64,000 nucleotides of DNA from Anaerolineaceae bacterium UBA2260 (GCA_002347485.1 DDXM01000037.1:16502-80501); one strand, 5' to 3'; shown: positions 24,228-39,224, counted from the first letter of the stretch. The notes: a model not told the origin generated them from the letters alone. A program made the numbers and translations.

Positions 24228-25082
24228 TTGGATTGGATCGAAAGATTGGAAAACCACACTGTTACAATATATGATAGTACTACATCTATAACATTCCCAC
24301 AATATCTTGTAAAAACGGTCAGAGATATTCTTCAGTACAGATTCGCCTGGTCGAATTTCGTAAAAACCGGCCTGCGAATTCGCTACCGCAGATCGGTACT
24401 GGGATTCTTTTGGAGTTTGCTTAACCCATTAATCAGCCTGGTCGTGATCGCTACCGCGTTTTCATTTCTATTTAACCGGGATATTAAGAGCTTTGGGATT
24501 TTCCTGTTCGCGGGAATGCTCCCCTACCAGTATATCAGCACCTCCATCCAGCAGGCGACGCTCTCCTTGATCAACGCTGAGGGTTACCTGAAGAAGGTTT
24601 ACCTGCCCCAGATGTTATTCCCGCTGATCACCGTCTCGATCGAAACGGTCAATTTTATTTTCAGCCTGTTCGCCCTTTATATCATCGCCCTTTTCTTCGG
24701 CGCAACTTTCTCGCCGACGGTATTCCTCCTCCCAATTGTCATCTTGATCTTTTTTTTCTTTAATTTGGGCTTGGGCATGTTCCTGTCCGTGTTGAATGTT
24801 TTCTTCAGAGACACACCCAATATCGTGACCGTCCTGTTCTCAGCGCTCTTTTATGCCACCCCGGTTATATACACCCTGGACCGACTTCCCGAAAACCTGC
24901 AGAGGATATTTAAACTCAATCCCCTCCTATATTTTGTAAAACTCTCACGCCTGGTAATCCTGGGGGATGCGCCGATGCACTTTTGGGATTGGATGATTCC
25001 GATCATATTTGCGCTGGTGGCATTATTGATCGGATGCTGGATGATGATGAAGAGCGAAGGAAAGGTCGTTTACAGACTATGA
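24228..25082 (+). CDS. wzm: ABC-2 type polysaccharide/O-antigen export permease (Wzm-like)
   Basis: The 284-aa product has six hydrophobic helices. The N-terminal RYRRSVLGFFWSLLNP motif is characteristic of ABC-2 (Wzm/TagG/KpsM) permeases. The start is TTG. Confidence 0.85.
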   Translation: MDWIERLENHTVTIYDSTTSITFPQYLVKTVRDILQYRFAWSNFVKTGLRIRYRRSVLGFFWSLLNPLISLVVIATAFSFLFNRDIKSFGIFLFAGMLPYQYISTSIQQATLSLINAEGYLKKVYLPQMLFPLITVSIETVNFIFSLFALYIIALFFGATFSPTVFLLPIVILIFFFFNLGLGMFLSVLNVFFRDTPNIVTVLFSALFYATPVIYTLDRLPENLQRIFKLNPLLYFVKLSRLVILGDAPMHFWDWMIPIIFALVALLIGCWMMMKSEGKVVYRL

Positions 25083-25885
25083 TGCCAATCATCGAATTTG
25101 AAAACGTGTCGGTCCAGGTCCGCGCGTATACCAATCCGACCCCAACGCTCAAAGAGACCTTCGTTTCACTTTTTGCGAAACATAAAGGCGCCACCAGTTA
25201 TGCCGAGTTCTTCGCCTTGAGGGATGTCAATCTCAAGATCTATGAGGGTGAACGGGTGGGAATCCTTGGCTTGAACGGGGCGGGTAAATCCACCATGCTT
25301 AAGGTGATCGCAGGGATTTACCGCCCTCATACCGGGCGTGTGATCGTGCGCGGCGAGGTGACCCCGCTGCTCGAAACAAGGGCAGCGATCAACCCTGAAT
25401 TGACCGGGCGCGACAACATTTACCAGTACGGGGCGATCCACTGCATCCCGGCGGAATACGTGCGCTCGAAGGAACAGGAGATCATCGACTTCTCTGAACT
25501 GGGTGATTTTATCAATGTCCCGGCCAAGTATTATTCAACGGGAATGTTCTCGCGGCTGGTTTTTTCGATCGCTACAATGATCGACCCGGATATCCTGATT
25601 ATCGATGAGGTATTCTCGGCAGGAGATTCGAGCTTCGTCGAAAAAGCGACCAACCGCCTCTTGGGCTTGCTGGATAAATCACGCGCGGTGTTTTTTGTTT
25701 CGCATAACATTGAGCAGGTTTTGCGTATCTGCGACCGCATCCTGGTACTGCAGGAGGGAAGGGTTATCAATGATGGTCCCTCAGTCGAAATGGCACAATT
25801 CTACAAAGAGAATATAATTTCCAAGCGCAAGATCGGCATGGTCAACCGATTCCTGGTAGAAAAGCTTAAGGAAAGGAACGGCTAA
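25079..25885 (+). CDS. wzt: ABC-2 polysaccharide export ATP-binding protein (Wzt/TagH-like), no C-terminal carbohydrate-binding domain
   Basis: The ATG at 25079 overlaps the wzm stop (ATGA). Walker A is GLNGAGKST, the signature is YSTGMFSRL and Walker B is ILIIDEV. At about 268 aa it is an NBD only. Confidence 0.88.
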   Translation: MMPIIEFENVSVQVRAYTNPTPTLKETFVSLFAKHKGATSYAEFFALRDVNLKIYEGERVGILGLNGAGKSTMLKVIAGIYRPHTGRVIVRGEVTPLLETRAAINPELTGRDNIYQYGAIHCIPAEYVRSKEQEIIDFSELGDFINVPAKYYSTGMFSRLVFSIATMIDPDILIIDEVFSAGDSSFVEKATNRLLGLLDKSRAVFFVSHNIEQVLRICDRILVLQEGRVINDGPSVEMAQFYKENIISKRKIGMVNRFLVEKLKERNG

Positions 25886-26112: not shown

Positions 26113-26208
26113 AAAAAAACGCGTAGGGATTCGCTGATTTATTGTGACAATCATTGTCCCGATGGCGCGCATTCCACTCAGCTGCTAAGGATATTGAATC
26201 GGATCGAT

Positions 26209-27654
26209 ATGACTCTGCAAAAGCCGACGTTGTACCTGCATGTTGGAACGCACAAGACCGGTACGACTGCTTTACAAACTTCTTTGCAAGCTAGCCGACA
26301 ATTGCTCCTTGACCAGTCTATTCTTTATCCTGAAGGATTATATTGGGGGGGGCATCATGACATCGCCAGGTACATAAAAAATAATTCATACTTGAATTTG
26401 GTTGAAATATTTTTCGAAAACATTAATTCAGAATGTCAACAAAAGAATATCAATAAAGTGGTGATTTCCTCTGAGGATTTCTTCAAGTTTACTAGAGCAG
26501 ATATTCGACGTGAAAAGGCAGAAATTGCCGAAGAATCCCTGGAAAATATGTATAAATTAAAAGAGGTATTGCCTAAAGGTTTTGATATAAAAATTGTTGC
26601 TTACATCCGCAGACAAGATCTAGCGATTGAAGCAAAATACAACCAGCGGGTAAAATTCAAGAATAATTTCACAATTACCGCCAAAGAGTTCAGGGATGAA
26701 ATGATGGACGATATCACCCTAAACTATGATTTTCTTCTTGATCTTTGGGCGAGTGTATTTGGAAATGAAAATATCATTGTGCGGGTATATGAAAAGCAGG
26801 AACTTCCTGATGGTACGGTAGTCGATTTCCTCAAGAAAGTTCTACAGATTACGGATGAGAACGTAATCAAGCAAATCGCGGCTTCTTCAACAATGGAAAA
26901 TCCGCGCTTAAACCGGGATTTACTTGAATATAAGCGAATCCTCAACATGATCTATAAAGATAATCCCCTGGATAGAAATCAGTTGTATCTTGATTTTCTT
27001 CAAGTTGCCTCAGAAATGGAAGGCAGCGATAACTTTAAGGATCTATATTCCATTGAAGAAAGAAGAGCAATTCTTGAACACTATTCTGAATGTAATGCTC
27101 ATGTCGCGAAGATTTTTCTGGGACGGGAAGATGGCAAGTTGTTTAGTGAGTTTACAGAACAGGAAGAAAATTACATACCATACCCCGGATTATCAGTTGA
27201 GAAGGCTATAGAAATTAGCCACAGATTGCAAAACATCAAAATATGTCGCGTCAAAGAGAAAGTCGATTATTTAAATGATTTGGTCACGAGCGTGCAGAAC
27301 TTTAGAGTGATACGAATTTTCCGCAAAATCTTTCATCAATTAAAAAGATCGCAAAATTCATTGCTAATTCACCGGATTGAAAAAAGCGGTTTATTTGACC
27401 AAGAATATTATTTGAATACTTACCCGGAAGTAAAGATCACGGGAATGGACCCCTTAACGCATTACATGGAATACGGGTGGCGGGAAGAATTTAATCCGAG
27501 CAGGAAATTTAATACGTCAATATATTTAAGGCGGTTTCCTGAACTGAGGAGCTCTGGATATTGCCCGCTAGTGCATTATTTAAGAGGGAAAAATAGGTTC
27601 AGAAACCAATCAAATGTTGACGCAATTGAGGAAATTGATCAAGAAGACTATTAA
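26209..27654 (+). CDS. Sulfotransferase-like protein, paralogue 1, with a C-terminal double FDxxYYL...NPLxHY repeat module
   Basis: The N-terminal loop LYLHVGTHKTGTTALQ is 5'-PSB-like, VVISSED follows, and AYIRRQDLAIEAKYNQ is 3'-PB-like. The C-terminus reads SGLFDQEYYLNTYPEVKITGMDPLTHYMEYGWREEFNPSRKFNTSIYLRRFPELRSSGYCPLVHYL. I chose the ATG at 26209 by parallel with paralogue 2. The track's TTG at 26194 is not conserved in paralogue 2. Confidence 0.6.
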   Translation: MTLQKPTLYLHVGTHKTGTTALQTSLQASRQLLLDQSILYPEGLYWGGHHDIARYIKNNSYLNLVEIFFENINSECQQKNINKVVISSEDFFKFTRADIRREKAEIAEESLENMYKLKEVLPKGFDIKIVAYIRRQDLAIEAKYNQRVKFKNNFTITAKEFRDEMMDDITLNYDFLLDLWASVFGNENIIVRVYEKQELPDGTVVDFLKKVLQITDENVIKQIAASSTMENPRLNRDLLEYKRILNMIYKDNPLDRNQLYLDFLQVASEMEGSDNFKDLYSIEERRAILEHYSECNAHVAKIFLGREDGKLFSEFTEQEENYIPYPGLSVEKAIEISHRLQNIKICRVKEKVDYLNDLVTSVQNFRVIRIFRKIFHQLKRSQNSLLIHRIEKSGLFDQEYYLNTYPEVKITGMDPLTHYMEYGWREEFNPSRKFNTSIYLRRFPELRSSGYCPLVHYLRGKNRFRNQSNVDAIEEIDQEDY

Positions 27655-27760
27655 CCAGGAAGTGGAAAATTTCCTTACTTTTACCATCAAATTGAAATTT
27701 TCAAGTTATAAACCCACCAATCACAACTGAATTTTGCTAAAAATCAGCTTAATTTCGGGA

Positions 27761-27769
27761 TGGTATAAT
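27761..27769 (+). promoter_or_regulatory. Extended -10 promoter TGgTATAAT upstream of sulfotransferase-like paralogue 2
   Basis: This is the same 17-nt block as at 26096-26112. It lies 98 nt upstream of the ATG at 27867. Confidence 0.5.
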
Positions 27770-27866
27770 CAAAAATGCTTCGGGTTTTAATTAGACTTGC
27801 ATAATTATTAATTGGCCTAGTGTTGAATAATCAACTTCATATCTAAGGAAATCGAATCGAATCGAT

Positions 27867-29297
27867 ATGACTCTGCAAAAGCCAACTTTGTACCTGCACA
27901 TTGGCACGCATAAGACCGGCACTTCATCCATTCAAATGGCTTTGCATACCCACCGCGAGGAACTGCTCAAGGCGGGTGTGCTTTACCCGGCGCTGAATAA
28001 TGCGTATAATCATTACGAATTGGCAGTTCTTTTAAAGTCACCTGAAGGGATGACAATAATCCAGAACTGGTTTGACGGGATCGTTGAAAAGGTCAATCAG
28101 CGCTCGATCAACAAAGTGGTAATTTCGGCTGAGGCGCTTTATTTCCTGAGGTTTATTGAGTTAGTTAGAACTAAGGATAATCCCCGAAATTCAACTATTA
28201 CTGAAGAAAACTACCGGGAAAAACTCAACAATCTGCGCGCTCTGATCCCGGATATTTTTGACATCAAGGTTGTGGTTTACTTGCGCCGCCAGGATAGTTT
28301 TATCCAATCAGGGTACAGCCAGTTAATAAAAGGATCAGAATACTTTTCTGGTTCCATCAGGGAGTTTATCGACGGCCTCGCAGTTTTCATGGACTATAGC
28401 TTCATGCTGAATCTTTGGGCGGAGATCTTCGGAAAAGAGAACATCCTGGTCAGAGTTTATGAGAAGCAGCAATTACCGGGTGGCAGCGTTCAGGATTTTT
28501 TGCGCGTGATAGAAATACCCACTGATCTCTCCAACATTATCCTTTCAACCACGGACAATTACAACATCCGCCTGAGCAGAGAGCTTTTGGACTATAAACT
28601 GATCTTGAACCAGCTCTTAAAAAATGAAGACCCGGTTCGTAAAGACCAACTGCACTACACCCTCCTAGAGAAATTATCCGAGCAGCCTGAATTCCGCCAG
28701 ACTAACGGAGAATTTCTGACCACTCAGGAAAAACGTGACATCATTTCCCGATATTCCGAGAGCAATGCAAAAGTTGCCCGGGAGTTTTTGGGGCGGGAAG
28801 ATGGGCGCCTGTTCTATGAAGCTTTACCAGAAGAAACAAAAAGTGACAGCTATCCAGGGCTCAGCGTTGAAAGGGCGGTGGAGATCGGCACCCGGTTAAG
28901 CTTCCTGGTCATTGACGGTTATGAGCAGAGAACCAAAATCAAATCCCTTCATTCGGTCCTGTCGTATCCGGAACTGCTTGACGCGCAGGGCTTATTGAAC
29001 ATGTTTCCAATGAAAATCCTCAAGAAGATCTATGTCAAAATCAAGAATGAAAAAGATATTCGGATTATACGGCGCAGCGGCTTATTTGATGCAGAGTATT
29101 ACCTGGCTTACAACCCGGATGTGGCAGCCAGCGGGGTCGAGCCGATCAGGCACTTCGCCTACTCCGGATGGAAAGAACTGCGTAAGCCAAATGATCTGTT
29201 TGATGTCAACGGGTATATTTTAGATCACCCCGAGATCATTCGTTCAGGTATGAACCCCCTGGTTCATAAAATTATTCACAGTAAAGTGGAACGATAA
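27867..29297 (+). CDS. Sulfotransferase-like protein, paralogue 2, with a C-terminal double repeat module
   Basis: Motifs are LYLHIGTHKTGTSSIQ, VVISAEA and VYLRRQDSFIQSGYSQ. The C-terminus reads SGLFDAEYYLAYNPDVAASGVEPIRHFAYSGWKELRKPNDLFDVNGYILDHPEIIRSGMNPLVHKI. Confidence 0.6.
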   Translation: MTLQKPTLYLHIGTHKTGTSSIQMALHTHREELLKAGVLYPALNNAYNHYELAVLLKSPEGMTIIQNWFDGIVEKVNQRSINKVVISAEALYFLRFIELVRTKDNPRNSTITEENYREKLNNLRALIPDIFDIKVVVYLRRQDSFIQSGYSQLIKGSEYFSGSIREFIDGLAVFMDYSFMLNLWAEIFGKENILVRVYEKQQLPGGSVQDFLRVIEIPTDLSNIILSTTDNYNIRLSRELLDYKLILNQLLKNEDPVRKDQLHYTLLEKLSEQPEFRQTNGEFLTTQEKRDIISRYSESNAKVAREFLGREDGRLFYEALPEETKSDSYPGLSVERAVEIGTRLSFLVIDGYEQRTKIKSLHSVLSYPELLDAQGLLNMFPMKILKKIYVKIKNEKDIRIIRRSGLFDAEYYLAYNPDVAASGVEPIRHFAYSGWKELRKPNDLFDVNGYILDHPEIIRSGMNPLVHKIIHSKVER

Positions 29298-29300
29298 ACT

Positions 29301-30689
29301 ATGTCCTCTATCAAACCAACCCTCTTCATCCATATCGGTTTACCAAAGACTGGAACTACGGCATTACAAACAGCTTTGTCCGCCAGTCAGAAGCTTCTTC
29401 TTGAAAACAGGATCTATTATCCCAACGCGTTTTTTTGGGGCGGTCACCATGATATCGCCCGCTGGTTGAAGCACGGGAGTGATGATACTTTGCTCATCAA
29501 TTTTTTTGATGAGATGAAATCCGGGTGTTTGGAAAACGCGTGCGAAAAGGTTGTCATTTCCTCCGAGGGTTTCTATTATCCGATCGCCAGCGAGATTGAA
29601 AGAGATAAGGCAACCTGCTCGCTCGAGATTCGGAAGAATCTTTTGAGGTTAAGGCAAGTCATTCCTGAGGACTTTAACGTGAAAATCGTGGCATACCTGC
29701 GGCGGCAAGACCTCGCCCTTGACTCCAACTACAATCAGCGCGTTAAGTACAGTCACTCTTTCACGCTTTCTCCAAGGGAATTTTTGCAACGCACTTTTGA
29801 ACGGTTCAACCGGGACTACGATTTTCTCCTGGATGCGTGGGCTGAGGTGTTCGGGATTGGAAATATTATCGTCAGAGTGTATGAAAAAGGGCAACTTCCT
29901 GATGGTACGATCGTTGACTTTTTACGGAACGTATTGCAGATCGAAGATGACGGACTGATCAAGAAGGTCACCGCTTCTTCAACCATCGAAAATCCCCGAT
30001 TGAGCCGTGACCTGTTGGAATATAAGCGTATTTTAAACAAGATTTATAGCAACCAGCCATTGATGCGCGATCAGTTGTACCTTGATTTCCTGCAAGTATC
30101 TCAGCAGATGGAAGGCGCAACGAAATCCGGGAACATCTTCACGGTTGAAGAAAGGCTGGAAATCCTCTCCAAATACCAGGAAGGCAACGAAAGAGTGGCA
30201 AGGAAATTCCTGGGTCGGGAAGACGGGAGACTGTTTTACGATCCCTTGCCGGATAAAGAAAAGGACCCTCCGTACCCGGGCTTATCCGTTGAAAAATCCA
30301 TCGAGATCAGTTGGCGATTGCATTTGCTGGAAATGAATCGCATCGAGAAGAATGTGGATGCGTTAAACGCCTTCATATCACAAATTAAAGGACTGTTTGG
30401 CGTAAGAGTATTCAGAAAGATTTACAGGTTTTTTAAAGAAAGGAAGGCTTCTGAAATTTATCGAAGAATCGAAAAGAGCGAGCTGTTTGATCGCGAATAT
30501 TACCTGAGCACCTATCCTGTGGTAAAGGAGACAGGTTTGGATCCCCTGCAGCATTACCTGAATCATGGATGGAAAGAGGGTTTTAATCCAAGCCGCAACT
30601 TTAACACGGCTGAATATCTCTTAAAATATCCAGATCTCGCCAGCAATGATTTGAACCCACTTGTTCATTACCTGCAAAATAGAAAGTAA
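29301..30689 (+). CDS. Sulfotransferase-like protein, paralogue 3 (closest to paralogue 1), with a C-terminal double repeat module
   Basis: Motifs are LFIHIGLPKTGTTALQ, VVISSEG and AYLRRQDLALDSNYNQ. Long near-identical stretches are shared with paralogue 1, for example NIIVRVYEK..LPDGT.VDFL, ENPRL.RDLLEYKRILN and QLYLDFLQV. The C-terminus reads SELFDREYYLSTYPVVKETGLDPLQHYLNHGWKEGFNPSRNFNTAEYLLKYPDLASNDLNPLVHYL. The gene starts 3 nt after the paralogue 2 stop. Confidence 0.6.
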   Translation: MSSIKPTLFIHIGLPKTGTTALQTALSASQKLLLENRIYYPNAFFWGGHHDIARWLKHGSDDTLLINFFDEMKSGCLENACEKVVISSEGFYYPIASEIERDKATCSLEIRKNLLRLRQVIPEDFNVKIVAYLRRQDLALDSNYNQRVKYSHSFTLSPREFLQRTFERFNRDYDFLLDAWAEVFGIGNIIVRVYEKGQLPDGTIVDFLRNVLQIEDDGLIKKVTASSTIENPRLSRDLLEYKRILNKIYSNQPLMRDQLYLDFLQVSQQMEGATKSGNIFTVEERLEILSKYQEGNERVARKFLGREDGRLFYDPLPDKEKDPPYPGLSVEKSIEISWRLHLLEMNRIEKNVDALNAFISQIKGLFGVRVFRKIYRFFKERKASEIYRRIEKSELFDREYYLSTYPVVKETGLDPLQHYLNHGWKEGFNPSRNFNTAEYLLKYPDLASNDLNPLVHYLQNRK

Positions 30690-30727
30690 TGAAAATTGAT
30701 GCCTAATTATCCTAAAGGCTTGGAAGT

Positions 30728-32341
30728 ATGACGCGATTATTTCATCGAACGAGGAATACTGTGGAAGGTGGCGACAACATCGTTTATCTTCTTGATCGAT
30801 ACCTGTTTGAAAATGATTCGACTGTGATGATCGGCGGTTGGTGTTTTTCAAAACGGACCGGCAAGGTTTCTATTTCTGTCAGTGGCGTTGAGGCCAGGGT
30901 CACCAGGCATTACCGTGATGATCTCGCAAGGGATTTTCCCGCCTACAAGGAGCAGATTCGCAACAGCGGTTTTGAGATCAGGATCAGTAAAAAGGACGCG
31001 AACACAAAGAAATTCGGGATTACTTTCTCGGACGGAACTGAAACGGTGGATGTTCCCAATGACAGGCGGAAGATCTTTACCGTGATGCTGCGGAACCGGG
31101 TGAAGAAACTGATCAAAGGGGGGATTTTCCTGATCCTGGGCATCATAAGCGCGCTTGACCTGGGAAAGTTTAGAAGGCAATGGATCACCCAATTCAAGCG
31201 GCACGCGCAGTTGATCCAACCCGGTAAGGCTGAGGAGCCCGAAGGTGTTCAAAGGATCGATTCAGACATTAAATATGTTGCCTTTTACCTGCCGCAATTT
31301 CACCCGATCAAAGAGAATGACGAGTGGTGGGGAAAAGGGTTCACAGAGTGGCGTAACGTGGCGCGCGCGTTACCGATGTACGTGGGACACTACCAGCCCC
31401 ACATCCCCTCTGACCTGGGGTTTTATGACCTTCGCAACGCGCGAACGATCGAAAACCAGGTGAACCTGGCGCGCCGATTCGGGATCTATGGGTTTTGTTT
31501 TCATTACTATTGGTTCGGAGGAAGAAGACTGCTCGAAGAGCCCTTGGATATTTTCCTGGAGCACCAGGAGATCGACTTTCCCTTCTGCATCTGCTGGGCG
31601 AACGAGACATGGTCGCGCAGGTGGGATGGATCAGAAAACGATATACTGATGAAGCAGGATCATACCGAGGAGACGGATCTGCGCTTCATCCAGGACGCGG
31701 TGGAACTCTTCCGTGATAAGCGCTACATTCGTATCAACGAAAGACCGGTGCTCATCATTTACCGCCCTGATCTCTTCCCGTCACTGCCGGACACAATTGA
31801 GCATTGGAAAACTTACTGCAAAGAACAGGGTATGCAGCCGCCTTTCGTGATCGGCGCGCTGACCTTTGATATCGAAGATCCCACCATCTTTGGTTGCGAT
31901 GCAGGGGTCGAGTTCCCGCCTCACGGGTTGCGCTTGCGGCAGATCACATACAAGAAACGCATGCTGAATCCCAAATTCAGCGGGATTGTTTTTGAAGCCA
32001 GGAATATCATTCAAGATAAACTGTACCTGGAGAGCACTCCCTTCCTGAAATTCAGGACCGTCTTCCCGGGATGGGACAACACGCCGCGCAAGCCCGAAAA
32101 AGGCTTTGTGTTTGAACACACCTCTCCAGCGTTCTACAAAGAATGGCTTAAAGATGTCAGCCAATATACCAATACAAATATTGCGCCTGAGCATAGGTTT
32201 GTTTTCATCAACGCGTGGAATGAGTGGGCGGAAGGCGCGCACCTTGAACCTGATTTTCAATATGGGACGGGCTACCTGGAAGCCACAGCCGAGGTGCTCA
32301 AGGAATTGAGAACCAGAGGTGATCAACCTGCCGGTGAATAA
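30728..32341 (+). CDS. WbsX-family glycosyltransferase/glycoside-hydrolase-like protein with an N-terminal extension and one TM helix
   Basis: YVAFYLPQFHPIKENDEWWGKGFTEWRNV ... FCFHYYWFGGRRLLE ... CICWANETWSRRWDG ... INAWNEWAEGAHLEP is the WbsX-family (lipopolysaccharide biosynthesis protein) signature as I remember it. The first ~160 aa plus the helix IKGGIFLILGIISAL are additional. Confidence 0.75.
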   Translation: MTRLFHRTRNTVEGGDNIVYLLDRYLFENDSTVMIGGWCFSKRTGKVSISVSGVEARVTRHYRDDLARDFPAYKEQIRNSGFEIRISKKDANTKKFGITFSDGTETVDVPNDRRKIFTVMLRNRVKKLIKGGIFLILGIISALDLGKFRRQWITQFKRHAQLIQPGKAEEPEGVQRIDSDIKYVAFYLPQFHPIKENDEWWGKGFTEWRNVARALPMYVGHYQPHIPSDLGFYDLRNARTIENQVNLARRFGIYGFCFHYYWFGGRRLLEEPLDIFLEHQEIDFPFCICWANETWSRRWDGSENDILMKQDHTEETDLRFIQDAVELFRDKRYIRINERPVLIIYRPDLFPSLPDTIEHWKTYCKEQGMQPPFVIGALTFDIEDPTIFGCDAGVEFPPHGLRLRQITYKKRMLNPKFSGIVFEARNIIQDKLYLESTPFLKFRTVFPGWDNTPRKPEKGFVFEHTSPAFYKEWLKDVSQYTNTNIAPEHRFVFINAWNEWAEGAHLEPDFQYGTGYLEATAEVLKELRTRGDQPAGE

Positions 32342-32379
32342 GCATTTTCCCGGGCAAATAAAAAAAAGGTGGAAAAACC

Positions 32380-33111
32380 TTGTCTAATCGTCAGATCGTT
32401 CTCCATATCGGATTCAGCAAAACGGGATCCTCAGCGCTGCAGGTTTTCCTTTCTCAAAACCAGAACCTGCTGGCCAGTTACAACTACGGGTATCCCGAGA
32501 TCGATCCTTACCACTTTGAAAAGGCAAAAAAGGGCGAGATTTCGAGTGGAAACGCTCATTTGCTGCGCGAGGTACTTCACCAGGATACCCAAAACGCTTC
32601 CTTAAATCAATCCGCTCGCTTACTGACACATTTTCTTAGCGCCAATGGCCGCAATTCGACCCTTATTATTTCCTCCGAGAGCTTCGGGGTGATGACCGAG
32701 GAAGAGATCGCTTTTTTCTCCAGATTATTGAGACAATTTTCGCTTGATGTGAAGATCATCTGTTATGTGCGCCGGCAGGATCAGTATATCGAAGCGGCAT
32801 GGACGCAGTGGCAAAGCAAACTCTCTGATTCGTTGCAGCTTGATTTAAGAACGAACCCGGATGTTGTGAAATCTAGGATTGACCCGATCCGGCATTACGT
32901 AGCGAACGGGTGGCATGAAGGAAGGGACCCTGCGCCGGGTTTTTCCACGGCGAATTACCTGGCTGAACATCCGGATATCGCCGTATTAAAACTTAACCCA
33001 TTTGTTCAGTACATTCTAGACCAAAAAATAACTCTTTCAAAATGTTCACCGGGTGAATTTCAAAGGATCGATCCGGCTAGTACCAACCATCGGGAAAAAC
33101 ATAACAGGTAA
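32380..33111 (+). CDS. Truncated sulfotransferase-like paralogue 4 (N-terminal half fused directly to the repeat module)
   Basis: The TTG start lies 7 nt after AAGGTGG. Motifs are VLHIGFSKTGSSALQ, LIISSES and CYVRRQDQYIEAAWTQ. These run straight into LDLRTNPDVVKSRIDPIRHYVANGWHEGRDPAPGFSTANYLAEHPDIAVLKLNPFVQYI. The product is 243 aa against 460-480 aa for paralogues 1-3. Confidence 0.55.
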   Translation: MSNRQIVLHIGFSKTGSSALQVFLSQNQNLLASYNYGYPEIDPYHFEKAKKGEISSGNAHLLREVLHQDTQNASLNQSARLLTHFLSANGRNSTLIISSESFGVMTEEEIAFFSRLLRQFSLDVKIICYVRRQDQYIEAAWTQWQSKLSDSLQLDLRTNPDVVKSRIDPIRHYVANGWHEGRDPAPGFSTANYLAEHPDIAVLKLNPFVQYILDQKITLSKCSPGEFQRIDPASTNHREKHNR

Positions 33112-33114: not shown

Positions 33115-36100
33115 ATGGCAGGGTATTCAAACGAGCGCAGGTTACACAAAGACATCAAGCTGATCAAAGGGTCAGGTTTGTTCGACGCCAGTTGGTACCT
33201 ATCCACTTACCCTGAGGTAGCAGGCAGCGGAGAATCCCCAGAATTGCATTACTTGTTGAGGGGGGGATTTGAGGGTTATGACCCGTGTGAGATATTTTCG
33301 AGCAGCGCCTACCTTGAACAATATCCTGATGTTCGGGAAGCCGGGATGAATCCTCTGGTTCATTATGTTACCTTCGGTAAAAAAGAAGGCCGTAGTGTCG
33401 AGGTCAGCGAACAAGCCGGCAATGTAGCAAAAGAACTGATCGCCACAAAACAGGAGTATTACCGACTGTTTGGCTGTTTACCGGATCTCACGGCCCCGGT
33501 CACCTTTTCAGAAAAGATCCTTGCGTATAAGTTGTTCTATACCGAACAAGACCTGGGCAGGTTTGTCGATAAGGGCAGGGTTCGGGAATTTGTGGCAAAA
33601 ACCATTGGGGAAAAATACCTCATTCCGATGATTGGGATCTTTTCCGATCCGGATGATATCGATCTTAAGGAATTGCCCGACCAGTTCGTTATAAAAGCCA
33701 CACATGGTTCTGGATGGAACGCGTTCTGTTCGAGTAAAGCAAATTTTGATTGGGCAGGTCAAAAAAAAATCCTCAGGGAATGGTTGAATAGCAATTTCTA
33801 CGACCGATTTTTCGAATCCGCCTACATGAATGTACCGCCAAGGCTTCTCATCGAACATTTCATTCACGATGAGTACGGGATTGTCCCCCGGGATTACAAA
33901 TTCTTCTGTTTTAACGGTGAGCCCGCTTTGATCCAGGTGGATTCAGACCGGTTTTCAGGACATAATCGAAATTTTTATGATCTTAAATGGAATCTGCTCA
34001 ATGTCAGGGGAAATTACCCAAATAACCAGGGAAGGTTGGAAAAACCCGCCAACCTGGCAAAAATGCTGGAAGTCAGCAGGTGTCTCTCCGCGGGTTTTCC
34101 TTTTGTGCGTGTTGACCTTTATGCTATCCCTGAAGTGTACTTTGGCGAATTGTCCTTTTATCCTGAAGCTGGATTCTTGCGATTGACGCCTGTGTCGTGG
34201 GATAAAAAACTTGGCGAGTGTTTTGAGATACAAAAGTACTTAGACGAATCTTGCATAAATTTAAACGGATCATTCGATCCATTGGACCTGTTCCGGGTCC
34301 GTTCAGAACGGTTCGGTTTCGATTTTTCCTGTCATCGACAGGACCGACCTGCATATACGGCGCTCGCTAATCAAGACCTGACCAGCTATTTGTTCAGGCA
34401 AATGGTCAGGGGGGTGAAGACGTATATCGACGCCGACGCCGGCTGCGGCTTCTACGCGTTGCTCGCTGCTAAAAGCAACCCGGAGCTCGATATCCATTGT
34501 TTTGAATCTGCGCCGGTCATGCAAGACCTATTGCAAACCAATCTTGCTGACAACCATGTACAGGCTTCTATCAACGATGAACTCCTGCGAGAAATCGTGC
34601 ATGGACCGGCGCTCATCCGGATGGACGGCGGACCTGGCACCTCGAAAACACTGGAAAGACTGAAAGGGACCATCGAACATACCGCTGATGTACGGCTCTT
34701 GATTCATGATCTTGATGCGAATTCAAATACTGCCCCCAGGTTCCTAGAGGGTATTTTCGCGAAATTGGAACAGTGGGGATTTGACCTGTTTGTGGTGGAT
34801 GAAGAAAACAGGATTTACCGAAGGTATCCTTCCGCGGAGGAGGATACGCGCGCAAACAAACCGGGTCCGCGCAGCCTGGTGGCTATTAAAAAAGAGCAAT
34901 CCTTGAATCTCCTCTTCTTCTCTCATTCGGCGAACCTGTTTGGAGCTGAACGCTCCCTGCTTGATCTGACTGCCAGCCTGACCAGGCGATTCGGCGTGCT
35001 GTGCACGGTGGCACTACCGGAAGAGGGTCCGCTCAAACAAGCGCTGGAGAGCGCAGGAGTGGCCACCCGGGTCATCCCGTACAGCTGGTGGTGCGCGCCC
35101 TCCGGGTACCTGCCGGCGGACAAGGACGGCATCGACCGGACACTGGCTGAAAGTTATCAGGCGATGAGGGAACATTCACAGGCGATCGCAGGCATCGGCG
35201 CTGACCTGGTGGTGACCAGCACAATGGTCATTCCCTGGGGGGGGCTGACAGCCAAAAACCTGGATGTGCCGCATATCTGGTGGGTGAAGGAATTTGGCCA
35301 GCTGGATCATGGACTGGAATTCTACCTGCCCTTCGAGAAGACGCTCGAGGTGATCGATGAAGCCTCGAACTACATTGTGGTTCCTTCCAAAGCGCTCAAG
35401 GATACTCTCTTTGAGATGGTCTCTGCTGAGAAAGCGATCGTAGCGTATAACCTCAAACCGGTTTTCACCGGGTCTGATAGGATGGATGAAACATTCTTTT
35501 TTGATGATCAGGCGCTTAAACTCCTGATCTTCGGGTTGGTGATGCCCTCCAAGGGGCATGAGGAAGCCATCCAGGCCGTTGATAGGTTGCTCCAGGAGGG
35601 ACGCAACGTCGAGCTTTGCATCCTGGGGGACTCCAGCAATCCATACGGCGAACACCTGAAGGAATACGTGCGGTCCATCGGCCGCGGGGATCAAATTCAT
35701 TTCCATGAATTCACAACGAACGTGCGCGGGGCGATCGAACAGTCGGATATCGGACTGGTATGTTCCAGGAATGAGGCTTTCGGCAGGGTAACCGTGGAAG
35801 CCATGATGCTGGGGAAACCGGTCATCGGCACAAGGTCAGGGGGGACCATCGAACTGATCGAAGATGGGAGTGACGGGTTACTTTATGACCCGGGCAATCT
35901 TGATCAATTGGTCGAGAAAATTGAGTTTTTCCTCACTTCACCCGGTAAGGTTGTCGAATTCGGGGAGAGGGCTCAACAAAACATTCTGAGGAAATTAGAC
36001 GAAAAGCCTGTGGATGACCTCATGTATCAGTTAAGTCTGGGATTGAAAAAGGGGAGAAACCCGGGTTCAGCAAAATTATCTGATCTCGCCGCGGAGTGGG

Positions 36101-36306
36101 AAGGCAACGTTCCCAAGGCTTTTAAAGCAAGGATTTCTGATCTAGAAAAAAAGATCAGCGACCTGGAAGGATCGATCCGCGAGATTGAATCCAGCAAAAA
36201 GTGGAAACTCGCATTGAGGTTGTACGGAATCCGGAATGCGCTCGTACCGGAGGGATCCCTGCAGGATAGAGTTATTCAGAAGATATTCAAAAAGCCAATG
36301 GGGTGA
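33115..36306 (+). CDS. 1063-aa multidomain glycan-modifying enzyme: double repeat module, TupA-like ATP-grasp, possible FkbM-like methyltransferase fold, GT4 glycosyltransferase, C-terminal coiled coil
   Basis: - aa 20-92: SGLFDASWYLSTYPEVAGSGESPELHYLLRGGFEGYDPCEIFSSSAYLEQYPDVREAGMNPLVHYVTFGKKEGR, the same module as in the sulfotransferase-like paralogues.
- aa ~125-375: FSEKILAYKLFY...DKGRVREFV...QFVIKATHGSGWN...DYKFFCFNGEP...FVRVDLY...YFGELSFYPEAG, matching the TupA-type ATP-grasp.
- aa ~430-540: YIDADAGCGFYALLAA...CFESAP...IRMDGGPG, a weak FkbM-like match.
- aa ~590-990: GT4 with EAFGRVTVEAMMLGKPVIGTRSGGTIELIEDGSDGLL.
- aa ~1010-1040: ISDLEKKISDLEGSIREIE, a heptad coiled coil. Confidence 0.7.
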   Translation: MAGYSNERRLHKDIKLIKGSGLFDASWYLSTYPEVAGSGESPELHYLLRGGFEGYDPCEIFSSSAYLEQYPDVREAGMNPLVHYVTFGKKEGRSVEVSEQAGNVAKELIATKQEYYRLFGCLPDLTAPVTFSEKILAYKLFYTEQDLGRFVDKGRVREFVAKTIGEKYLIPMIGIFSDPDDIDLKELPDQFVIKATHGSGWNAFCSSKANFDWAGQKKILREWLNSNFYDRFFESAYMNVPPRLLIEHFIHDEYGIVPRDYKFFCFNGEPALIQVDSDRFSGHNRNFYDLKWNLLNVRGNYPNNQGRLEKPANLAKMLEVSRCLSAGFPFVRVDLYAIPEVYFGELSFYPEAGFLRLTPVSWDKKLGECFEIQKYLDESCINLNGSFDPLDLFRVRSERFGFDFSCHRQDRPAYTALANQDLTSYLFRQMVRGVKTYIDADAGCGFYALLAAKSNPELDIHCFESAPVMQDLLQTNLADNHVQASINDELLREIVHGPALIRMDGGPGTSKTLERLKGTIEHTADVRLLIHDLDANSNTAPRFLEGIFAKLEQWGFDLFVVDEENRIYRRYPSAEEDTRANKPGPRSLVAIKKEQSLNLLFFSHSANLFGAERSLLDLTASLTRRFGVLCTVALPEEGPLKQALESAGVATRVIPYSWWCAPSGYLPADKDGIDRTLAESYQAMREHSQAIAGIGADLVVTSTMVIPWGGLTAKNLDVPHIWWVKEFGQLDHGLEFYLPFEKTLEVIDEASNYIVVPSKALKDTLFEMVSAEKAIVAYNLKPVFTGSDRMDETFFFDDQALKLLIFGLVMPSKGHEEAIQAVDRLLQEGRNVELCILGDSSNPYGEHLKEYVRSIGRGDQIHFHEFTTNVRGAIEQSDIGLVCSRNEAFGRVTVEAMMLGKPVIGTRSGGTIELIEDGSDGLLYDPGNLDQLVEKIEFFLTSPGKVVEFGERAQQNILRKLDEKPVDDLMYQLSLGLKKGRNPGSAKLSDLAAEWEGNVPKAFKARISDLEKKISDLEGSIREIESSKKWKLALRLYGIRNALVPEGSLQDRVIQKIFKKPMG

Positions 36307-36375: not shown

Positions 36376-36618
36376 TCACTTTAATGTCCGGGTCTTTTCT
36401 TCGATGCTCGCCATCAGTTCACCCACGTTGGCGAAGTCCTGGATCTCGCTTTGATCGAATTCGATGCCAAATTCCAGTTCGATCGCGAGCATCAGGTTGA
36501 TATGCGAAAGGGAATCCCATTCGTCCACATCATCCGCCGTCAGTTGCGGCGTGAGCTCGATCGCATCGTTATCAAAAACGGTAACGAAAACCTGTTGTAA
36601 TCTCTCTTTAAGGTCCAT
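36376..36618 (-). CDS. Acyl/peptidyl carrier protein
   Basis: The 80-aa acidic four-helix pattern has the phosphopantetheine serine in DEWDSLSHINLMLAIE. It lies immediately downstream of the ligase with a 3-nt gap. Confidence 0.8.
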   Translation of the reverse strand: MDLKERLQQVFVTVFDNDAIELTPQLTADDVDEWDSLSHINLMLAIELEFGIEFDQSEIQDFANVGELMASIEEKTRTLK

Positions 36619-38229: not shown

Positions 38230-38468
38230 TAATCCTCCCTCAAGGATTGGACATCCTGCGCCACTGGAAATGACGGGTGTGGAATCACCGGAGATCAGGT
38301 CATCCACTGCTACCCGTACCCAGGGTAGATCCAGAATGTGAACCGATGGTACGCCAACCTATTCTTGCGTTCCAACAATCCGGCGAGCAGACCTTCCATA
38401 GGGTTGAAGTCAAACCACCGTAACAGGACGCGGCGTAATTGCCATTATACTCAAAGTAAAGAACTGCA

Positions 38469-38532: not shown

Positions 38533-39057
38533 ATGACACTCGCCTGGCTTGTGATCCGTAGTAAACCCAACCGTGAGGATTTTCTCGCGCGTGAGTTGGA
38601 ATCCCGAGATGTTGAGGTTTTTCATCCAAGGTTATTGGCAAACCCGGTAAACCCGCGCGCCCGGCGTTTCAAACCTTACTTTCCGGGTTACGTATTTGTG
38701 CGCGTTGATGTTGAGAAGATTAATACATCTTCGCTTGAGCACATCCCCGGGGCGGCGAACCTTGTCTCATTCGGGGGTGAGCTCGCGTCCGTGCCGGATA
38801 ACATTGTTCATGCGATCCGTCGCAAGGTGGAGGAGACGAACGCTGCCGGTGGTGAAAAAGCCGCGACCTTGCATCCTGGTGACCTGGTTGAGATCGAGCA
38901 TGGACCTTTCGCCGGCTACACCGCCATCCTCGATGCCAGCTTGCCTGGCAGCGAACGCGTGCGAGTGCTCCTGCGCATGCTCGAGAAGCGGGAGCTTCCG
39001 GTAGAAATGCCTGCTGGGTTCATAAAGGCGAGAAAAACCCCAAAAAAGAAATATTAA
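38533..39057 (+). CDS. Specialised NusG paralogue (RfaH/UpxY/LoaP-like transcription antiterminator)
   Basis: The NGN domain reads WLVIRSKPNREDFLARELESRDVEVFHPRL...KPYFPGYVFVRVD...GAANLVSFGG..ASVPDNIV. The KOW motif reads PGDLVEIEHGPFAGYTAIL. The 174-aa product is collinear with E. coli RfaH as I recall it. Confidence 0.8.
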   Translation: MTLAWLVIRSKPNREDFLARELESRDVEVFHPRLLANPVNPRARRFKPYFPGYVFVRVDVEKINTSSLEHIPGAANLVSFGGELASVPDNIVHAIRRKVEETNAAGGEKAATLHPGDLVEIEHGPFAGYTAILDASLPGSERVRVLLRMLEKRELPVEMPAGFIKARKTPKKKY

Positions 39058-39090
39058 TTGTACGATCTGGTGAGACAATCTCAGATCGGT

Positions 39091-39136
39091 CCGTAGAGTC
39101 TCCGTAAAGTCTCCGTAAAGTCTCCGTAAAGTCTCC
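39091..39136 (+). repeat. Tandem direct repeat, 11-bp unit CCGTA(A/G)AGTCT x4 plus a partial fifth copy
   Basis: The copies are CCGTAGAGTCT (39091-39101), then CCGTAAAGTCT at 39102, 39113 and 39124, then CCAAA. The array ends 18 nt upstream of the TGaTATACT element. Confidence 0.9.
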
Positions 39137-39154
39137 AAACAATAGAGAAAATTC

Positions 39155-39163: not shown

Positions 39164-39224
39164 ATATTTTAAATTATTTCAATCCTCGCAATTATCTTGT
39201 TCTGTAAACAAATAAGGGGAAAAA

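What the first reader, a model, noticed from the sequence alone, without database searches (positions are those of the whole stretch)
33115..36306. A 1063-aa enzyme combines the repeat module, a TupA-type ATP-grasp, a possible methyltransferase-like fold, a GT4 domain and a coiled coil
Seen: the segments are collinear, in this order.
- The double repeat module (aa 20-92).
- A TupA-like ATP-grasp (FSEKILAYKL...QFVIKATHGSGWN...DYKFFCFNGEP...FVRVDLY...FGELSFYPEAG).
- A region with a degenerate SAM-MT motif I (YIDADAGCGFYALLAA...CFESAP).
- A complete GT4 with EX7E.
- A terminal heptad stretch (ISDLEKKISDLEGSIREIE).

Established knowledge: in ABC-transporter-dependent O-antigen pathways, chain length is set by multidomain terminators that cap the glycan and use coiled coils as rulers (the WbdD paradigm). 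TupA-type ATP-grasps are linked to teichuronopeptide-type amide ligations but are biochemically almost unstudied.

Inference: this protein may extend the glycan (GT4) and also cap or decorate it (ATP-grasp ligation of an amino or acyl acid), acting as a terminator or decorator for the Wzm/Wzt pathway. I do not recognise this domain combination from any described enzyme.
Basis: partly seen in the sequence, partly recalled or inferred. Interest (0 to 1): 0.66.

Follow-up and report, generated by a model that had tools for sequence, protein, structure and literature searches.

The report
Amidoligase-glycosyltransferase fusion with dead methyltransferase
This is a real 1063-residue enzyme of a cell-surface polysaccharide pathway that joins an ATP-driven amide-forming domain to a sugar-adding domain across a decayed methyltransferase; it is an unusual build of known parts, not a new kind of machine.

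Summary
The ORF (33115-36306, +) is intact. An independent assembly carries the same 1063-aa ORF at 99% identity, so it is not a frameshift artefact. The ATP-grasp is a TupA-type amidoligase, 31% identical (E 3e-37) to Cj1438C of Campylobacter jejuni, which amidates glucuronate C6 in a growing capsule chain. The middle region is an FkbM/RfbT-type class-I methyltransferase. It keeps the fold but has a 43-44 aa deletion and has lost key motifs, so it is most likely inactive. Relatives form a series: intact, half-decayed, remnant, absent. The ATP-grasp and this GT4 subfamily always stay together. The GT4 is complete. The C-terminal coil is short and follows all catalytic domains. Wzt has no carbohydrate-binding module. 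The WbdD-style terminator/ruler reading is therefore not supported. Most likely role: amidate a carboxylate on the nascent glycan, then add the next sugar, as Cj1438 does. Substrates are unknown; no uronate-synthesis gene is nearby. The N-terminal double repeat also ends four sulfotransferase-like neighbours and is probably a shared docking module. Verdict: a new variant of a known kind, moderate interest.

The parts
33115..36306 (+). Whole ORF, 1063 aa, multidomain glycan-assembly enzyme
   Evidence: The same ORF is present in an independent assembly, L083/P0001.
33172..33399 (+). N-terminal double repeat module (aa ~20-95): two 3-helix units with consensus FDxxWYLxxYPDVxxxGxNPLxHYxxxGxxEGR
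   Evidence: AF2 helices 25-50 and 63-88, pLDDT 90-96. phmmer finds the module in four neighbouring ORFs. Other glycan enzymes carry up to 17 matched stretches of this module region. No Pfam family matches.
33496..34230 (+). TupA-type ATP-grasp amidoligase domain (aa ~128-372), predicted active
   Evidence: PF14305 at 198 bits, E 2.3e-58. 31% identity, E 3e-37 to characterised Cj1438C. K194, E234, E247, R332, D334 and E345 are invariant across 30 homologues.
34282..34899 (+). Vestigial FkbM/RfbT-type class-I methyltransferase domain (aa ~390-595): folded, probably catalytically dead
   Evidence: Orthologues carry PF05050 and PF05575 here. The window has a 43-44 aa deletion of the AVSDxxG hairpin, IDVGA changed to IDADA, FEP to FES, and KIDTEGNE to RMDGGPGT. 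It scores 65.7 bits against 398-428 for intact domains with a cassette-specific HMM. AF2 pLDDT is 79-89, and all top-50 Foldseek hits are class-I methyltransferases at E ~1e-7.
34900..36009 (+). Complete GT4 (GT-B, retaining) glycosyltransferase domain (aa ~596-965), predicted active
   Evidence: PF00534 E 4.5e-29, PF13692, and a weak PF13439 hit for the N half. EX7E at E887...E895, plus K813/G814 and G610/R613 invariant. Foldseek gives TMt 0.8 to HepE 4xsu and to BshA and MshA.
36070..36192 (+). Short C-terminal helical/coiled-coil spacer (aa 986-1026), including ISDLEKKISDLEGSIREIE
   Evidence: AF2 helices 986-997 and 999-1026. Weak CC_BshC hit. The spacer length varies among homologues; the window is near the minimum.
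36193..36285 (+). Conserved SxxW motif (S1027, W1030) and basic terminal helices. This is the cassette's C-terminal tail, possibly a membrane or partner contact.
   Evidence: S1027 and W1030 are invariant in A1. The tail reads SxSWRxTxPxR in FkbM-GT4-coil relatives.
24228..25885 (+). Wzm (24228-25082) and Wzt (25079-25885, 268 aa, NBD only): the exporter of the pathway
   Evidence: ABC2_membrane and ABC_tran hits. The Wzt/TagH-type NBD profile is matched end to end with no extra C-terminal domain. Gene calls in L083 agree.
26194..33111 (+). Operon partners upstream: three ~470-aa sulfotransferase-like paralogues (26194-27654, 27867-29297, 29301-30689), WbsX (30728-32341), and a 243-aa internally deleted fourth paralogue (32380-33111). 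All but WbsX end in the same double repeat.
   Evidence: The gene order is conserved in L080 and L083.
22279..24144 (-). 621-aa GT2 glycosyltransferase, a conserved partner. It lies directly downstream of the target's orthologue in L080.

Best explanation
The gene encodes an intact cytoplasmic glycan-assembly enzyme. It belongs to a Wzm/Wzt (ABC-transporter-dependent) pathway for a rhamnose-containing, probably sulfated, cell-envelope polysaccharide. The host is probably a Chloroflexota (Anaerolineae-like) bacterium.

Two domains are catalytic.
- The TupA-type ATP-grasp activates a carboxylate on the lipid-linked nascent glycan as an acyl-phosphate and joins it to an amine. The carboxylate is most likely C6 of a hexuronate. 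The amine would be an amino acid or an amino-alcohol.
- The fused retaining GT4 then adds the next sugar. This 'amidate, then extend' hand-off is the one shown for C. jejuni Cj1438.

The FkbM/RfbT-type methyltransferase between them is an evolutionary remnant. It still folds but has lost its SAM-binding and catalytic elements, so it now acts as a structural spacer.

The N-terminal double repeat is a docking or targeting module. It is shared with the four sulfotransferase-like enzymes of the operon and keeps them at the same assembly site. The short C-terminal coil and SxxW tail, inherited from the widespread FkbM-GT4-coil cassette, mediate oligomerisation or membrane/partner contact.

Shown here: domain identities, homology to Cj1438C, motif loss and deletion in the methyltransferase, conserved gene order, and absence of a Wzt CBM.

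Inferred: the substrates, the order of the two reactions, and the roles of the repeat and the tail.
For: ORF integrity.

ATP-grasp: PF14305 at 198 bits. 31% identity, E 3e-37 over the whole domain to Cj1438C, whose activity on chain-incorporated GlcA is published (PMC11800397). Catalytic Lys, Arg and acidic residues are invariant.

GT fusion precedent: Cj1438 is GT2 plus a TupA ATP-grasp, and its GT uses the glucuronamide as acceptor (PMC11800379).

The constant pairing is ATP-grasp with this GT4 subfamily:
- joined through an intact methyltransferase: P0003-6, P0121, P0124;
- joined through a decayed one: window, P0002, P0126, P0154;
- joined by a 15-54 aa linker: P0007-9, P0128, P0148, P0160;
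- encoded as adjacent separate genes, each with its own repeat module, in an Anaerolineaceae genome, L003.

Methyltransferase decay. The fold is retained.

GT4 completeness.

Pathway context: rmlCBAD, gmd, initiating phosphoglycosyltransferase, GT-C, GT2, Wzm/Wzt, WbsX. The order is conserved in L080, L081, L082 and L083.

Repeat module: it is found only in the target and the four sulfotransferase-like ORFs of the window.
Against: - No UDP-glucose/GDP-mannose 6-dehydrogenase and no dedicated amine-donor gene was found among the window ORFs of at least 150 aa scanned with Pfam; two short ones, 168 and 177 aa, were not scanned. None appears within +/-10 kb in L080-L082. The carboxylate and amine substrates therefore have no local genetic support.
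- Another TupA-like member, CfmP of K. pneumoniae, acts independently of surface polysaccharides (PMC13419641). Family membership alone does not fix the substrate.
- Methyltransferase inactivity is inferred from motifs and a deletion, not measured. E464, the ribose-binding acidic residue after strand 2, is still present.
- The roles proposed for the repeat module and the tail are untested.
- The organism assignment rests only on the best relatives of one protein.
Confidence: 0.6

Rival explanations
1. One reading: the protein is a WbdD/WbbB-type chain terminator. It caps the non-reducing end, by amide ligation and/or methylation, and its coiled coil acts as a molecular ruler that sets chain length for Wzm/Wzt export.
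For: - The pathway is ABC-transporter dependent.
- Relatives with an intact domain carry an RfbT-like methyltransferase. RfbT methylates the O-antigen terminus in V. cholerae O1 (PMC9929944, bioRxiv 10.1101/2020.08.20.259119).
- The topology, catalytic block then coil then short basic tail, resembles WbdD.
- The coil spacer varies widely among homologues: 126-243 aa from EX7E to SxxW.
Against: - Wzt has no CBM, yet in every terminated system described a CBM reads the cap (PMC11231755).
- The methyltransferase is decayed here.
- The coil is about 28 residues, near the family minimum, and does not separate a terminator from the GT module.
- The characterised homologue of the ATP-grasp modifies internal repeat-unit residues during polymerisation, not chain ends.
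Confidence: 0.12
2. The ATP-grasp does not amidate a glycan uronate. It might ligate an amino acid carboxylate onto an amino sugar, build a short peptide side chain as proposed for TupA in teichuronopeptide, or modify a protein or lipid acceptor.
For: - No ugd-type gene lies in the window or in three related loci.
- TupA-like CfmP works without surface polysaccharides.
- Identity to Cj1438C is only 31%.
Against: - The domain is always fused or adjacent to polysaccharide glycosyltransferases (GT4, GT2, GT8, O-antigen-ligase-like) in the relatives found.
- The only direct biochemistry found here for this family is glycan-uronate amidation.
- ugd genes often lie outside glycan clusters (general knowledge).
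Confidence: 0.2
3. The middle domain is still a working, if non-canonical, methyltransferase, or a SAM-sensing regulatory domain.
For: - The class-I fold is retained with good confidence.
- E464 after strand 2, D439 and G445 are invariant.
- The domain is 47% identical to that of P0002, so it is under constraint.
Against: - The first glycine of motif I is replaced by Asp (D441).
- The 43-44 aa AVSD hairpin after strand 3 is deleted.
- The KIDxEGxE motif after strand 4 is replaced.
- The HMM score is 66 bits against about 400 for intact domains.
- Several sister fusions have lost the domain altogether.
Confidence: 0.08
4. The long ORF is an assembly or sequencing artefact, or a decaying pseudogene that fuses two or three genes.
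For: The lineage does show in-frame deletions in two adjacent genes: the methyltransferase domain here and the 243-aa ORF upstream.
Against: - An independent assembly has the identical architecture and length.
- Overall pN/pS is 0.36, though it rests on only 18 substitutions.
- A homologue at 52% identity is collinear end to end.
- AF2 mean pLDDT is 89 with no disordered junctions.
Confidence: 0.01

Closest known systems
Cj1438 of Campylobacter jejuni NCTC 11168 (HS:2 capsule) and HS19.11: glycosyltransferase fused to a TupA-like ATP-grasp amidoligase
   Same: - One polypeptide joins a polymerising glycosyltransferase to a TupA-type ATP-grasp, with a third domain of unknown function between them.
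- The pathway is ABC-transporter dependent.
- The ATP-grasp domains are homologous: 31% identity, E 3e-37.
- The proposed logic is the same: amidate a chain carboxylate, then extend from it.
   Different: - The domain order is reversed: ATP-grasp first here, last in Cj1438.
- The GT is a retaining GT4 here and an inverting GT2 in Cj1438.
- The connector here is a recognisable dead FkbM methyltransferase.
- This protein has an extra N-terminal repeat module and a C-terminal coil.
- The locus has no ugd, serinol-P/ethanolamine-P synthesis genes or HAD phosphatase.
WbdD (E. coli O9a / K. pneumoniae O3), WbbB (O12) and ORF6-O7: coiled-coil chain terminators of ABC-transporter-dependent O-antigen assembly
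   Same: - They are multidomain enzymes of Wzm/Wzt pathways.
- They have a coil and a short C-terminal tail.
- Ancestors of this protein carried a methyltransferase of the type used for end-capping.
- Like WbbB and ORF6-O7, this protein carries a GT module in the same polypeptide.
   Different: - Wzt has no CBM here.
- The methyltransferase is dead.
- The coil is short and not placed between terminator and polymerase.
- There is no kinase.
- WbdD's methyltransferase is not of the FkbM family (my own knowledge, not tested here).
V. cholerae RfbT/WbeT (PF05575) and FkbM-family sugar O-methyltransferases (PF05050)
   Same: The middle domain descends from this family. Orthologues P0003-P0006 hit both Pfam models. 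RfbT loss of function (Ogawa to Inaba) is a natural precedent for dispensable terminal methylation.
   Different: In the window protein the domain fails the Pfam models, lacks the AVSD hairpin, and has lost the motif I glycine and the DxEGxE motif. It is embedded in a fusion rather than standing alone.
Uncharacterised FkbM-GT4-coiled-coil-SxSWRxTxPxR cassette proteins (about 710-770 aa, also embedded in giants of 1300-2600 aa)
   Same: Residues ~390-1063 of the target are a member of this cassette, at 33-43% identity over ~540 residues to many representatives.
   Different: The target has gained an N-terminal repeat and ATP-grasp, and has lost the methyltransferase function. I found no characterised member of the cassette in the searchable literature.
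TupA (Bacillus halodurans teichuronopeptide) and WemR (Proteus mirabilis O-antigen)
   Same: They belong to the same Pfam family (PF14305) and sit in surface-polysaccharide loci. They are predicted to add amino-acid amides to uronic acids (citing Iyer et al. 2009).
   Different: They are stand-alone proteins, and their activities are inferred genetically rather than shown in vitro. This is partly my recollection; their sequences were not compared here.

Membership tests
TupA-like ATP-grasp amidoligase (PF14305; prototype with biochemistry: Cj1438C) | Matches the family HMM above the curated threshold over its full length | tested here: met
   198 bits against a cut-off of 25; profile positions 2-240 of 241 matched
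TupA-like ATP-grasp amidoligase (PF14305; prototype with biochemistry: Cj1438C) | Full-length homology to the biochemically characterised member | tested here: met
   BLASTP against Cj1438C (sequence from the PMC11800397 supplement): 31% identity, E 3e-37, covering residues 17-267 of the 282-aa query
TupA-like ATP-grasp amidoligase (PF14305; prototype with biochemistry: Cj1438C) | ATP-grasp catalytic set retained: nucleotide-binding Lys, and the Arg and acidic Mg ligands of the RVDxY...GE motif | tested here: met
   K194, E234, E247, R332, D334 and E345 are invariant in 30 homologues. The same motifs align with Cj1438C.
TupA-like ATP-grasp amidoligase (PF14305; prototype with biochemistry: Cj1438C) | ATP-dependent amide formation on a glycan carboxylate | not testable with these tools
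   This needs an enzyme assay. As indirect context, no ugd-type or amine-donor gene was found in the window or in related loci.
FkbM/RfbT-type SAM-dependent methyltransferase (PF05050/PF05575) | Matches the family HMM | tested here: not met
   No PF05050 or PF05575 hit even at E<=1; only MTS at E 0.13-0.017. Scores 65.7 bits against 398-428 for intact domains with a cassette-specific HMM.
FkbM/RfbT-type SAM-dependent methyltransferase (PF05050/PF05575) | Descent from the family (orthologous position, alignable) | tested here: met
   Aligns column for column with the PF05050/PF05575 domains of P0003-P0006
FkbM/RfbT-type SAM-dependent methyltransferase (PF05050/PF05575) | Class-I Rossmann-like methyltransferase fold | tested here: met
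   AF2 domain model at pLDDT 79. All top-50 Foldseek PDB hits are class-I methyltransferases, E 6e-8 to 1e-6, TM 0.42-0.57 on query length.
FkbM/RfbT-type SAM-dependent methyltransferase (PF05050/PF05575) | SAM-binding and catalytic motifs: motif I D-V-G-A-x-x-G, the AVSDxxG hairpin after strand 3, and K-I-D-x-E-G-x-E after strand 4 | tested here: not met
   The window has IDADAGCG (Gly to Asp441), a 43-44 aa deletion that removes AVSD, and RMDGGPGT. The same changes are present in the independent assembly P0001.
GT4 retaining glycosyltransferase (GT-B) | HMM match, EX7E motif and two-Rossmann GT-B fold | tested here: met
   PF00534 E 4.5e-29 and PF13692 E 4.3e-25. E887-x7-E895 invariant. TMt 0.8 to HepE, BshA and MshA.
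GT4 retaining glycosyltransferase (GT-B) | Donor and acceptor specificity | not testable with these tools
   No NCBIfam equivalog is reached; the best is EpsE at 91 bits against a cut-off of 400
Coiled-coil chain terminator / molecular ruler (WbdD, WbbB, ORF6-O7 paradigm) | Wzt carries a C-terminal carbohydrate-binding module that reads the terminal cap | tested here: not met
   Wzt is 268 aa. The 244-residue NBD profile is matched end to end with nothing beyond it. Wzt is also short (281 aa) in L081.
Coiled-coil chain terminator / molecular ruler (WbdD, WbbB, ORF6-O7 paradigm) | An intact terminating (capping) catalytic module | tested here: inconclusive
   The RfbT-like methyltransferase is decayed. 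The ATP-grasp is intact, but its characterised homologue modifies internal residues.
Coiled-coil chain terminator / molecular ruler (WbdD, WbbB, ORF6-O7 paradigm) | An extended coiled coil that separates the terminator from the polymerase or the membrane-proximal site | tested here: not met
   The longest helix is 28 residues (999-1026). It lies C-terminal to all catalytic domains, and the methyltransferase remnant abuts the GT4 directly.
Coiled-coil chain terminator / molecular ruler (WbdD, WbbB, ORF6-O7 paradigm) | Operates in a Wzm/Wzt ABC-transporter-dependent pathway | tested here: met
   Wzm and Wzt lie 8 kb upstream in the same orientation. This is conserved in L080, L081 and L083.

The most novel reading that the evidence does not exclude
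The protein is the hub of a docked assembly line. The unnamed double-repeat module would be a dedicated recruitment domain. It would bring this enzyme and four sulfotransferase-like enzymes to the same nascent chain, producing a sulfated and amidated rhamnose-containing wall polymer in a Chloroflexota bacterium. The dead methyltransferase would have been repurposed as a non-catalytic glycan-binding 'reader' of the chain end. It would stand in for the CBM that this Wzt lacks, making it a pseudoenzyme used for chain-end sensing or length control.
Probability: 0.12. Interest if true: 0.7.

Novelty: new variant of a known kind. Interest (0 to 1): 0.42.

Why it matters
Amide-decorated and sulfated surface glycans shape charge, phage and immune recognition, and biofilm properties. 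The enzymes that install amides are known from essentially one biochemical example, Cj1438C.

This protein and its relatives offer three things.
- A second, evolutionarily distant fusion of a TupA-type amidoligase with a glycosyltransferase. That would support 'amidate, then extend' as a general assembly logic.
- A natural graded series of methyltransferase decay inside a multidomain enzyme. This is useful for asking what pseudoenzyme domains do in glycan machines.
- A widespread, unnamed helical repeat module that tags many polysaccharide enzymes and has no assigned function.

It also marks an uncharacterised envelope-glycan pathway in a phylum (Chloroflexota) whose cell-envelope biochemistry is poorly known. 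None of this overturns current models; it extends them.

Tried and rejected
- Frameshift or fusion artefact: rejected using the independent assembly and the collinear homologue.
- Per-domain dN/dS between the window and L083, to test constraint on the methyltransferase remnant: uninformative, with only 18 substitutions in 3.2 kb.
- PDB sequence search for a solved TupA-type ATP-grasp: all hits fell in the GT4 domain.
- Foldseek with the full-length model: the 50 listed top hits are GT-B glycosyltransferases or proteins that contain such a domain. A separate model of the middle domain was therefore needed.
- The original amidoligase paper (PMC9619395) is not held. I used the later papers and their supplement instead.
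- Literature search for a characterised FkbM-GT4-coiled-coil protein: nothing relevant found.
- Search for a uronate-synthesis or amine-donor gene among the window ORFs of at least 150 aa scanned with Pfam, and in three related loci: none found.
- The convergent acetate-CoA-ligase-like gene and ACP downstream were considered as an acyl or aminoacyl donor for the ATP-grasp. They were set aside: ATP-grasp chemistry does not use carrier-protein thioesters, and the pair sits on the other strand next to a second, RfaH-headed cluster.
- Pfam and NCBIfam gave no family for the repeat module or for the sulfotransferase-like paralogues beyond weak P-loop hits.

Full report
**1. Observation.**
The window has a single ATG-initiated open frame at 33115-36306 (+) encoding 1063 aa. 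It starts 3 nt after the stop of the upstream ORF.

An independent assembly from a public sequencing run (L083, protein P0001) is 99.75% identical in DNA over 13.8 kb. It encodes the same 1063 residues with ten substitutions and no indels. A homologue at 52% identity (P0002, 1118 aa) is collinear over residues 7-1058. The AlphaFold2 model has mean pLDDT 89 and confidently folded domains throughout. The 'two or three genes joined by frameshifts' alternative is therefore refuted.

**2. Domain anatomy.**

(a) Residues ~20-95 form two copies of a three-helix unit at pLDDT 90-96. No Pfam model matches.

(b) Residues 134-370 match ATPgrasp_TupA at 198 bits (cut-off 25), covering the whole profile.

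(c) Residues ~390-595 give only a marginal MTS hit. In the relatives P0003-P0006 the same position is occupied by a domain that hits PF05050 (FkbM, Methyltransf_21) and PF05575 (V. cholerae RfbT). The window sequence aligns to it column by column. A separate model of this region (pLDDT 79) finds only class-I SAM methyltransferases among its top 50 PDB matches.

(d) Residues ~596-965 are a complete GT4: PF00534 at E 4.5e-29, EX7E at E887/E895, and a GT-B fold with TM 0.8 to HepE, BshA and MshA.

(e) Residues 986-1057 are helical. It is followed by an invariant S1027/W1030 motif.

**3. The ATP-grasp.**
That is out of date.

[quoted passage not shown] It catalyses ATP-dependent amide formation between the C6 carboxylate of glucuronate and serinol phosphate or ethanolamine phosphate. 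It acts on glucuronate already incorporated in the chain, and UDP-GlcA is not a substrate (PMC11800397, PMC11800379).

I took the Cj1438C sequence from that paper's supplement. The window domain aligns over its full length at 31% identity, E 3e-37, with the VxK, RxxxE, RVDLY and GELTF motifs in register. In a 30-sequence alignment K194, E234, E247, R332, D334 and E345 are invariant. The domain is very probably active.

Cj1438 is itself a glycosyltransferase-amidoligase fusion, and its GT uses the glucuronamide as acceptor. Fusing these two activities therefore has direct precedent.

**4. The methyltransferase is a remnant.**
Compared with P0003-P0006 the window protein shows four changes.
- It lacks 43-44 residues, the AVSDxxG...F hairpin that follows strand 3.
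- IDVGA(N/H)xG has become IDADAGCG: the first motif I glycine is now Asp441.
- FEP(V/I)PE has become FESAPV.
- KIDTEGNE after strand 4 has become RMDGGPGT.

P0001 has the same changes, so they are not sequencing errors.

I built an HMM from twelve intact domains of this cassette and scored the relatives.

| Protein(s) | Score / state |
|---|---|
| Intact fusions | 398-428 bits |
| P0002 | 207 bits |
| Window protein | 65.7 bits, matching only the first third of the model |
| P0154 | 25.8 bits |
| P0126 | no match |
| P0007, P0008, P0009, P0128, P0148, P0160 | no methyltransferase; ATP-grasp joined to the same GT4 subfamily by 15-54 residues |

In one Anaerolineaceae genome (L003) the ATP-grasp and this GT4 are adjacent separate genes, each with its own copy of the repeat module. 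The constant functional pair is thus ATP-grasp plus GT4. The methyltransferase is optional and has been lost or degraded, apparently more than once.

The remnant still folds and is 47% identical to that of P0002, against 56-66% for the catalytic domains. It is probably retained as a structural connector. Inactivity is an inference from motifs, not a measurement.

**5. Origin of the architecture.**
An exhaustive search of 1.84 billion cluster representatives shows that residues ~480-1030 match many proteins at 33-43% identity. These are built as FkbM methyltransferase, GT4, variable coiled coil and a tail reading SxSWRxTxPxR. Some are about 710-770 aa on their own. Others are embedded in multidomain proteins up to 2600 aa that also carry GT8, GT2, WbsX or repeat-module arrays.

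In L081 the gene after the target's orthologue is a second copy of this cassette fused to WbsX.

The window protein is therefore a member of a widespread but, as far as I could find, uncharacterised cassette. It has acquired an N-terminal repeat plus ATP-grasp and has then lost methyltransferase function. The combination is uncommon but not unique.

**6. Context.**
The gene closes a co-oriented block:
- GT4 (12269), initiating phosphoglycosyltransferase (13410), GT-C/PMT_2-like (14943);
- gmd (17685) and rmlC/B/A/D (18807-22193);
- GT2 (22279-24144, minus strand);
- Wzm and Wzt;
- three ~470-aa paralogues with a sulfotransferase-like N-terminal P-loop;
- WbsX, and a 243-aa truncated fourth paralogue.

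PAPS-supply genes (cysN-like, cysD, cysC, tauE) lie at 59.7-63.8 kb. The order ST-like, ST-like, WbsX, ST-like, target, GT2 is conserved in L080, and in L083 with three ST-like genes upstream of WbsX as in the window. More distant loci keep Wzm/Wzt or rml (L081 the transporter genes, L082 the rml genes), together with WbsX, PMT_2 and a small GT2.

The best genomic relatives are Anaerolineaceae, and an LCP-family protein lies nearby. The product is thus more likely a wall-linked or S-layer-type glycan of a Chloroflexota bacterium than a classical LPS O-antigen. This is an inference.

No ugd-type dehydrogenase and no dedicated amine-donor gene was found in the window or the related loci. The identity of the carboxylate and the amine stays open.

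**7. The terminator/ruler hypothesis.**
A recent experimental synthesis (PMC11231755) gives the defining features of this paradigm. A terminating module sits at the distal end of an extended coiled coil, separated from the polymerase. A CBM on Wzt reads the cap.

Here:
- Wzt is a bare 268-aa nucleotide-binding domain.
- The only domain with precedent as a cap-installing enzyme is dead.
- The coil is about 28 residues, among the shortest spacers in the family (EX7E to SxxW 140 aa; range 126-243).
- The coil lies after all catalytic domains.

The ancestral cassette, with an RfbT-like methyltransferase and a long coil, may well be a terminator-polymerase. RfbT methylates the O-antigen terminus in V. 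cholerae. This protein itself does not meet the criteria.

**8. The repeat module.**
Within the window it occurs only in the target (N-terminal) and at the C-termini of the four sulfotransferase-like ORFs. Elsewhere, up to 17 matched stretches per protein fall on this module region, in large proteins; module-region matches in the first search sit in proteins with RgpF, GT2, GT4, WbsX, GT61 and methyltransferase domains.

When the ATP-grasp and GT4 are split into two genes, each keeps a copy. The simplest reading is a docking or targeting module that co-localises enzymes acting on the same polymer. This is untested.

**9. Verdict.**

The protein is a new variant of a known kind, a glycosyltransferase-amidoligase fusion of the Cj1438 type. 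It is built on an uncharacterised FkbM-GT4-coil cassette and carries a pseudo-methyltransferase.

Interest is moderate. The decay series, the unnamed docking repeat and the sulfated Chloroflexota glycan pathway are each worth a follow-up. Nothing here is categorically new.

Noticed in passing
window 26194-27654, 27867-29297, 29301-30689 (+); 59687-63804 (-): Three ~470-aa paralogues (37-60% identical to one another and to those in L080) start with KPTLY(L/I)H(V/I)GxxKTGT, which resembles the sulfotransferase PAPS-binding loop. They give only weak Sulfotransfer_1/3/4 hits at the P-loop and no family assignment. A full PAPS-supply set (cysN-like, cysD, cysC, tauE) sits at the right end of the window. 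Together these suggest a heavily sulfated polysaccharide made by an undescribed sulfotransferase family.
   Followed up: partly
window 32380-33111 (+): The 243-aa ORF just upstream of the target is an internally deleted orthologue of a 467-aa sulfotransferase-like gene in L080. Residues 1-175 match 1-175 at 62% identity, and residues 145-216 match 396-466, so about 220 aa are missing in frame. This lineage therefore carries in-frame deletions in two adjacent genes: this ORF and the methyltransferase domain of the target.
   Followed up: yes
window 33172-33399 and the C-termini of the four sulfotransferase-like ORFs; proteins P0122, P0123, P0139 and others: The ~37-aa helical repeat (FDxxWYLxxYPDVxxxGxNPLxHYxxxGxxEGRxP) has no Pfam or NCBIfam model. 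An exhaustive search finds up to 17 matched stretches per protein on this module region, in large proteins; module-region matches in the first search sit in proteins with RgpF, GT2, GT4, WbsX, GT61 and methyltransferase domains. It is a widespread, unnamed module.
   Followed up: partly
window 36376-36618 (-) and 36622-38307 (-): Convergent with the target lie an 80-aa acyl/peptidyl carrier protein (PP-binding 22.4 bits against a cut-off of 20.8, DSLS motif) and, upstream of it, an acetate-CoA-ligase-like AMP-binding enzyme (605 bits, below the 729-bit equivalog cut-off). The pair resembles a DltA/DltC-style loading system and could acylate a glycan. The ACP is also present in L083.
   Followed up: partly
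window 38533-58370 (+): A second polysaccharide cluster is headed by an RfaH/UpxY-like antiterminator (38533-39057). It contains a phosphoglycosyltransferase, a dehydratase, a nucleotidyltransferase, a DegT aminotransferase, a Wzz/tyrosine-kinase-like protein (47909-49642), a LysM protein, a fusion of LMW phosphotyrosine phosphatase with LytR-CpsA-Psr (50562-52127), a 1418-aa protein with an Ig-like end, and a second acyl-CoA-ligase-like gene.
   Followed up: no
window 26194-33111: The block encoding the sulfotransferase-like genes and WbsX has 44.6% G+C. The window as a whole has 51.2%, and the flanking polysaccharide genes have 50-54%. This hints that the block was acquired separately.
   Followed up: no
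L003 9977-13554; L081 13344-17072: In an Anaerolineaceae MAG the ATP-grasp (with an N-terminal repeat) and the GT4 (with a C-terminal repeat) are adjacent separate genes with no methyltransferase between them. In L081 the target's orthologue is followed by a paralogous FkbM-GT4 cassette fused to WbsX (34% identity to target residues 385-991).
   Followed up: partly
window 14943-17477 (+): An 844-aa protein has only a weak PMT_2 (GT-C) match. PMT/PMT_2 proteins also sit near the target's orthologues in L081 and L082. This suggests a conserved extracytoplasmic transfer or glycosylation step in this pathway.
   Followed up: no
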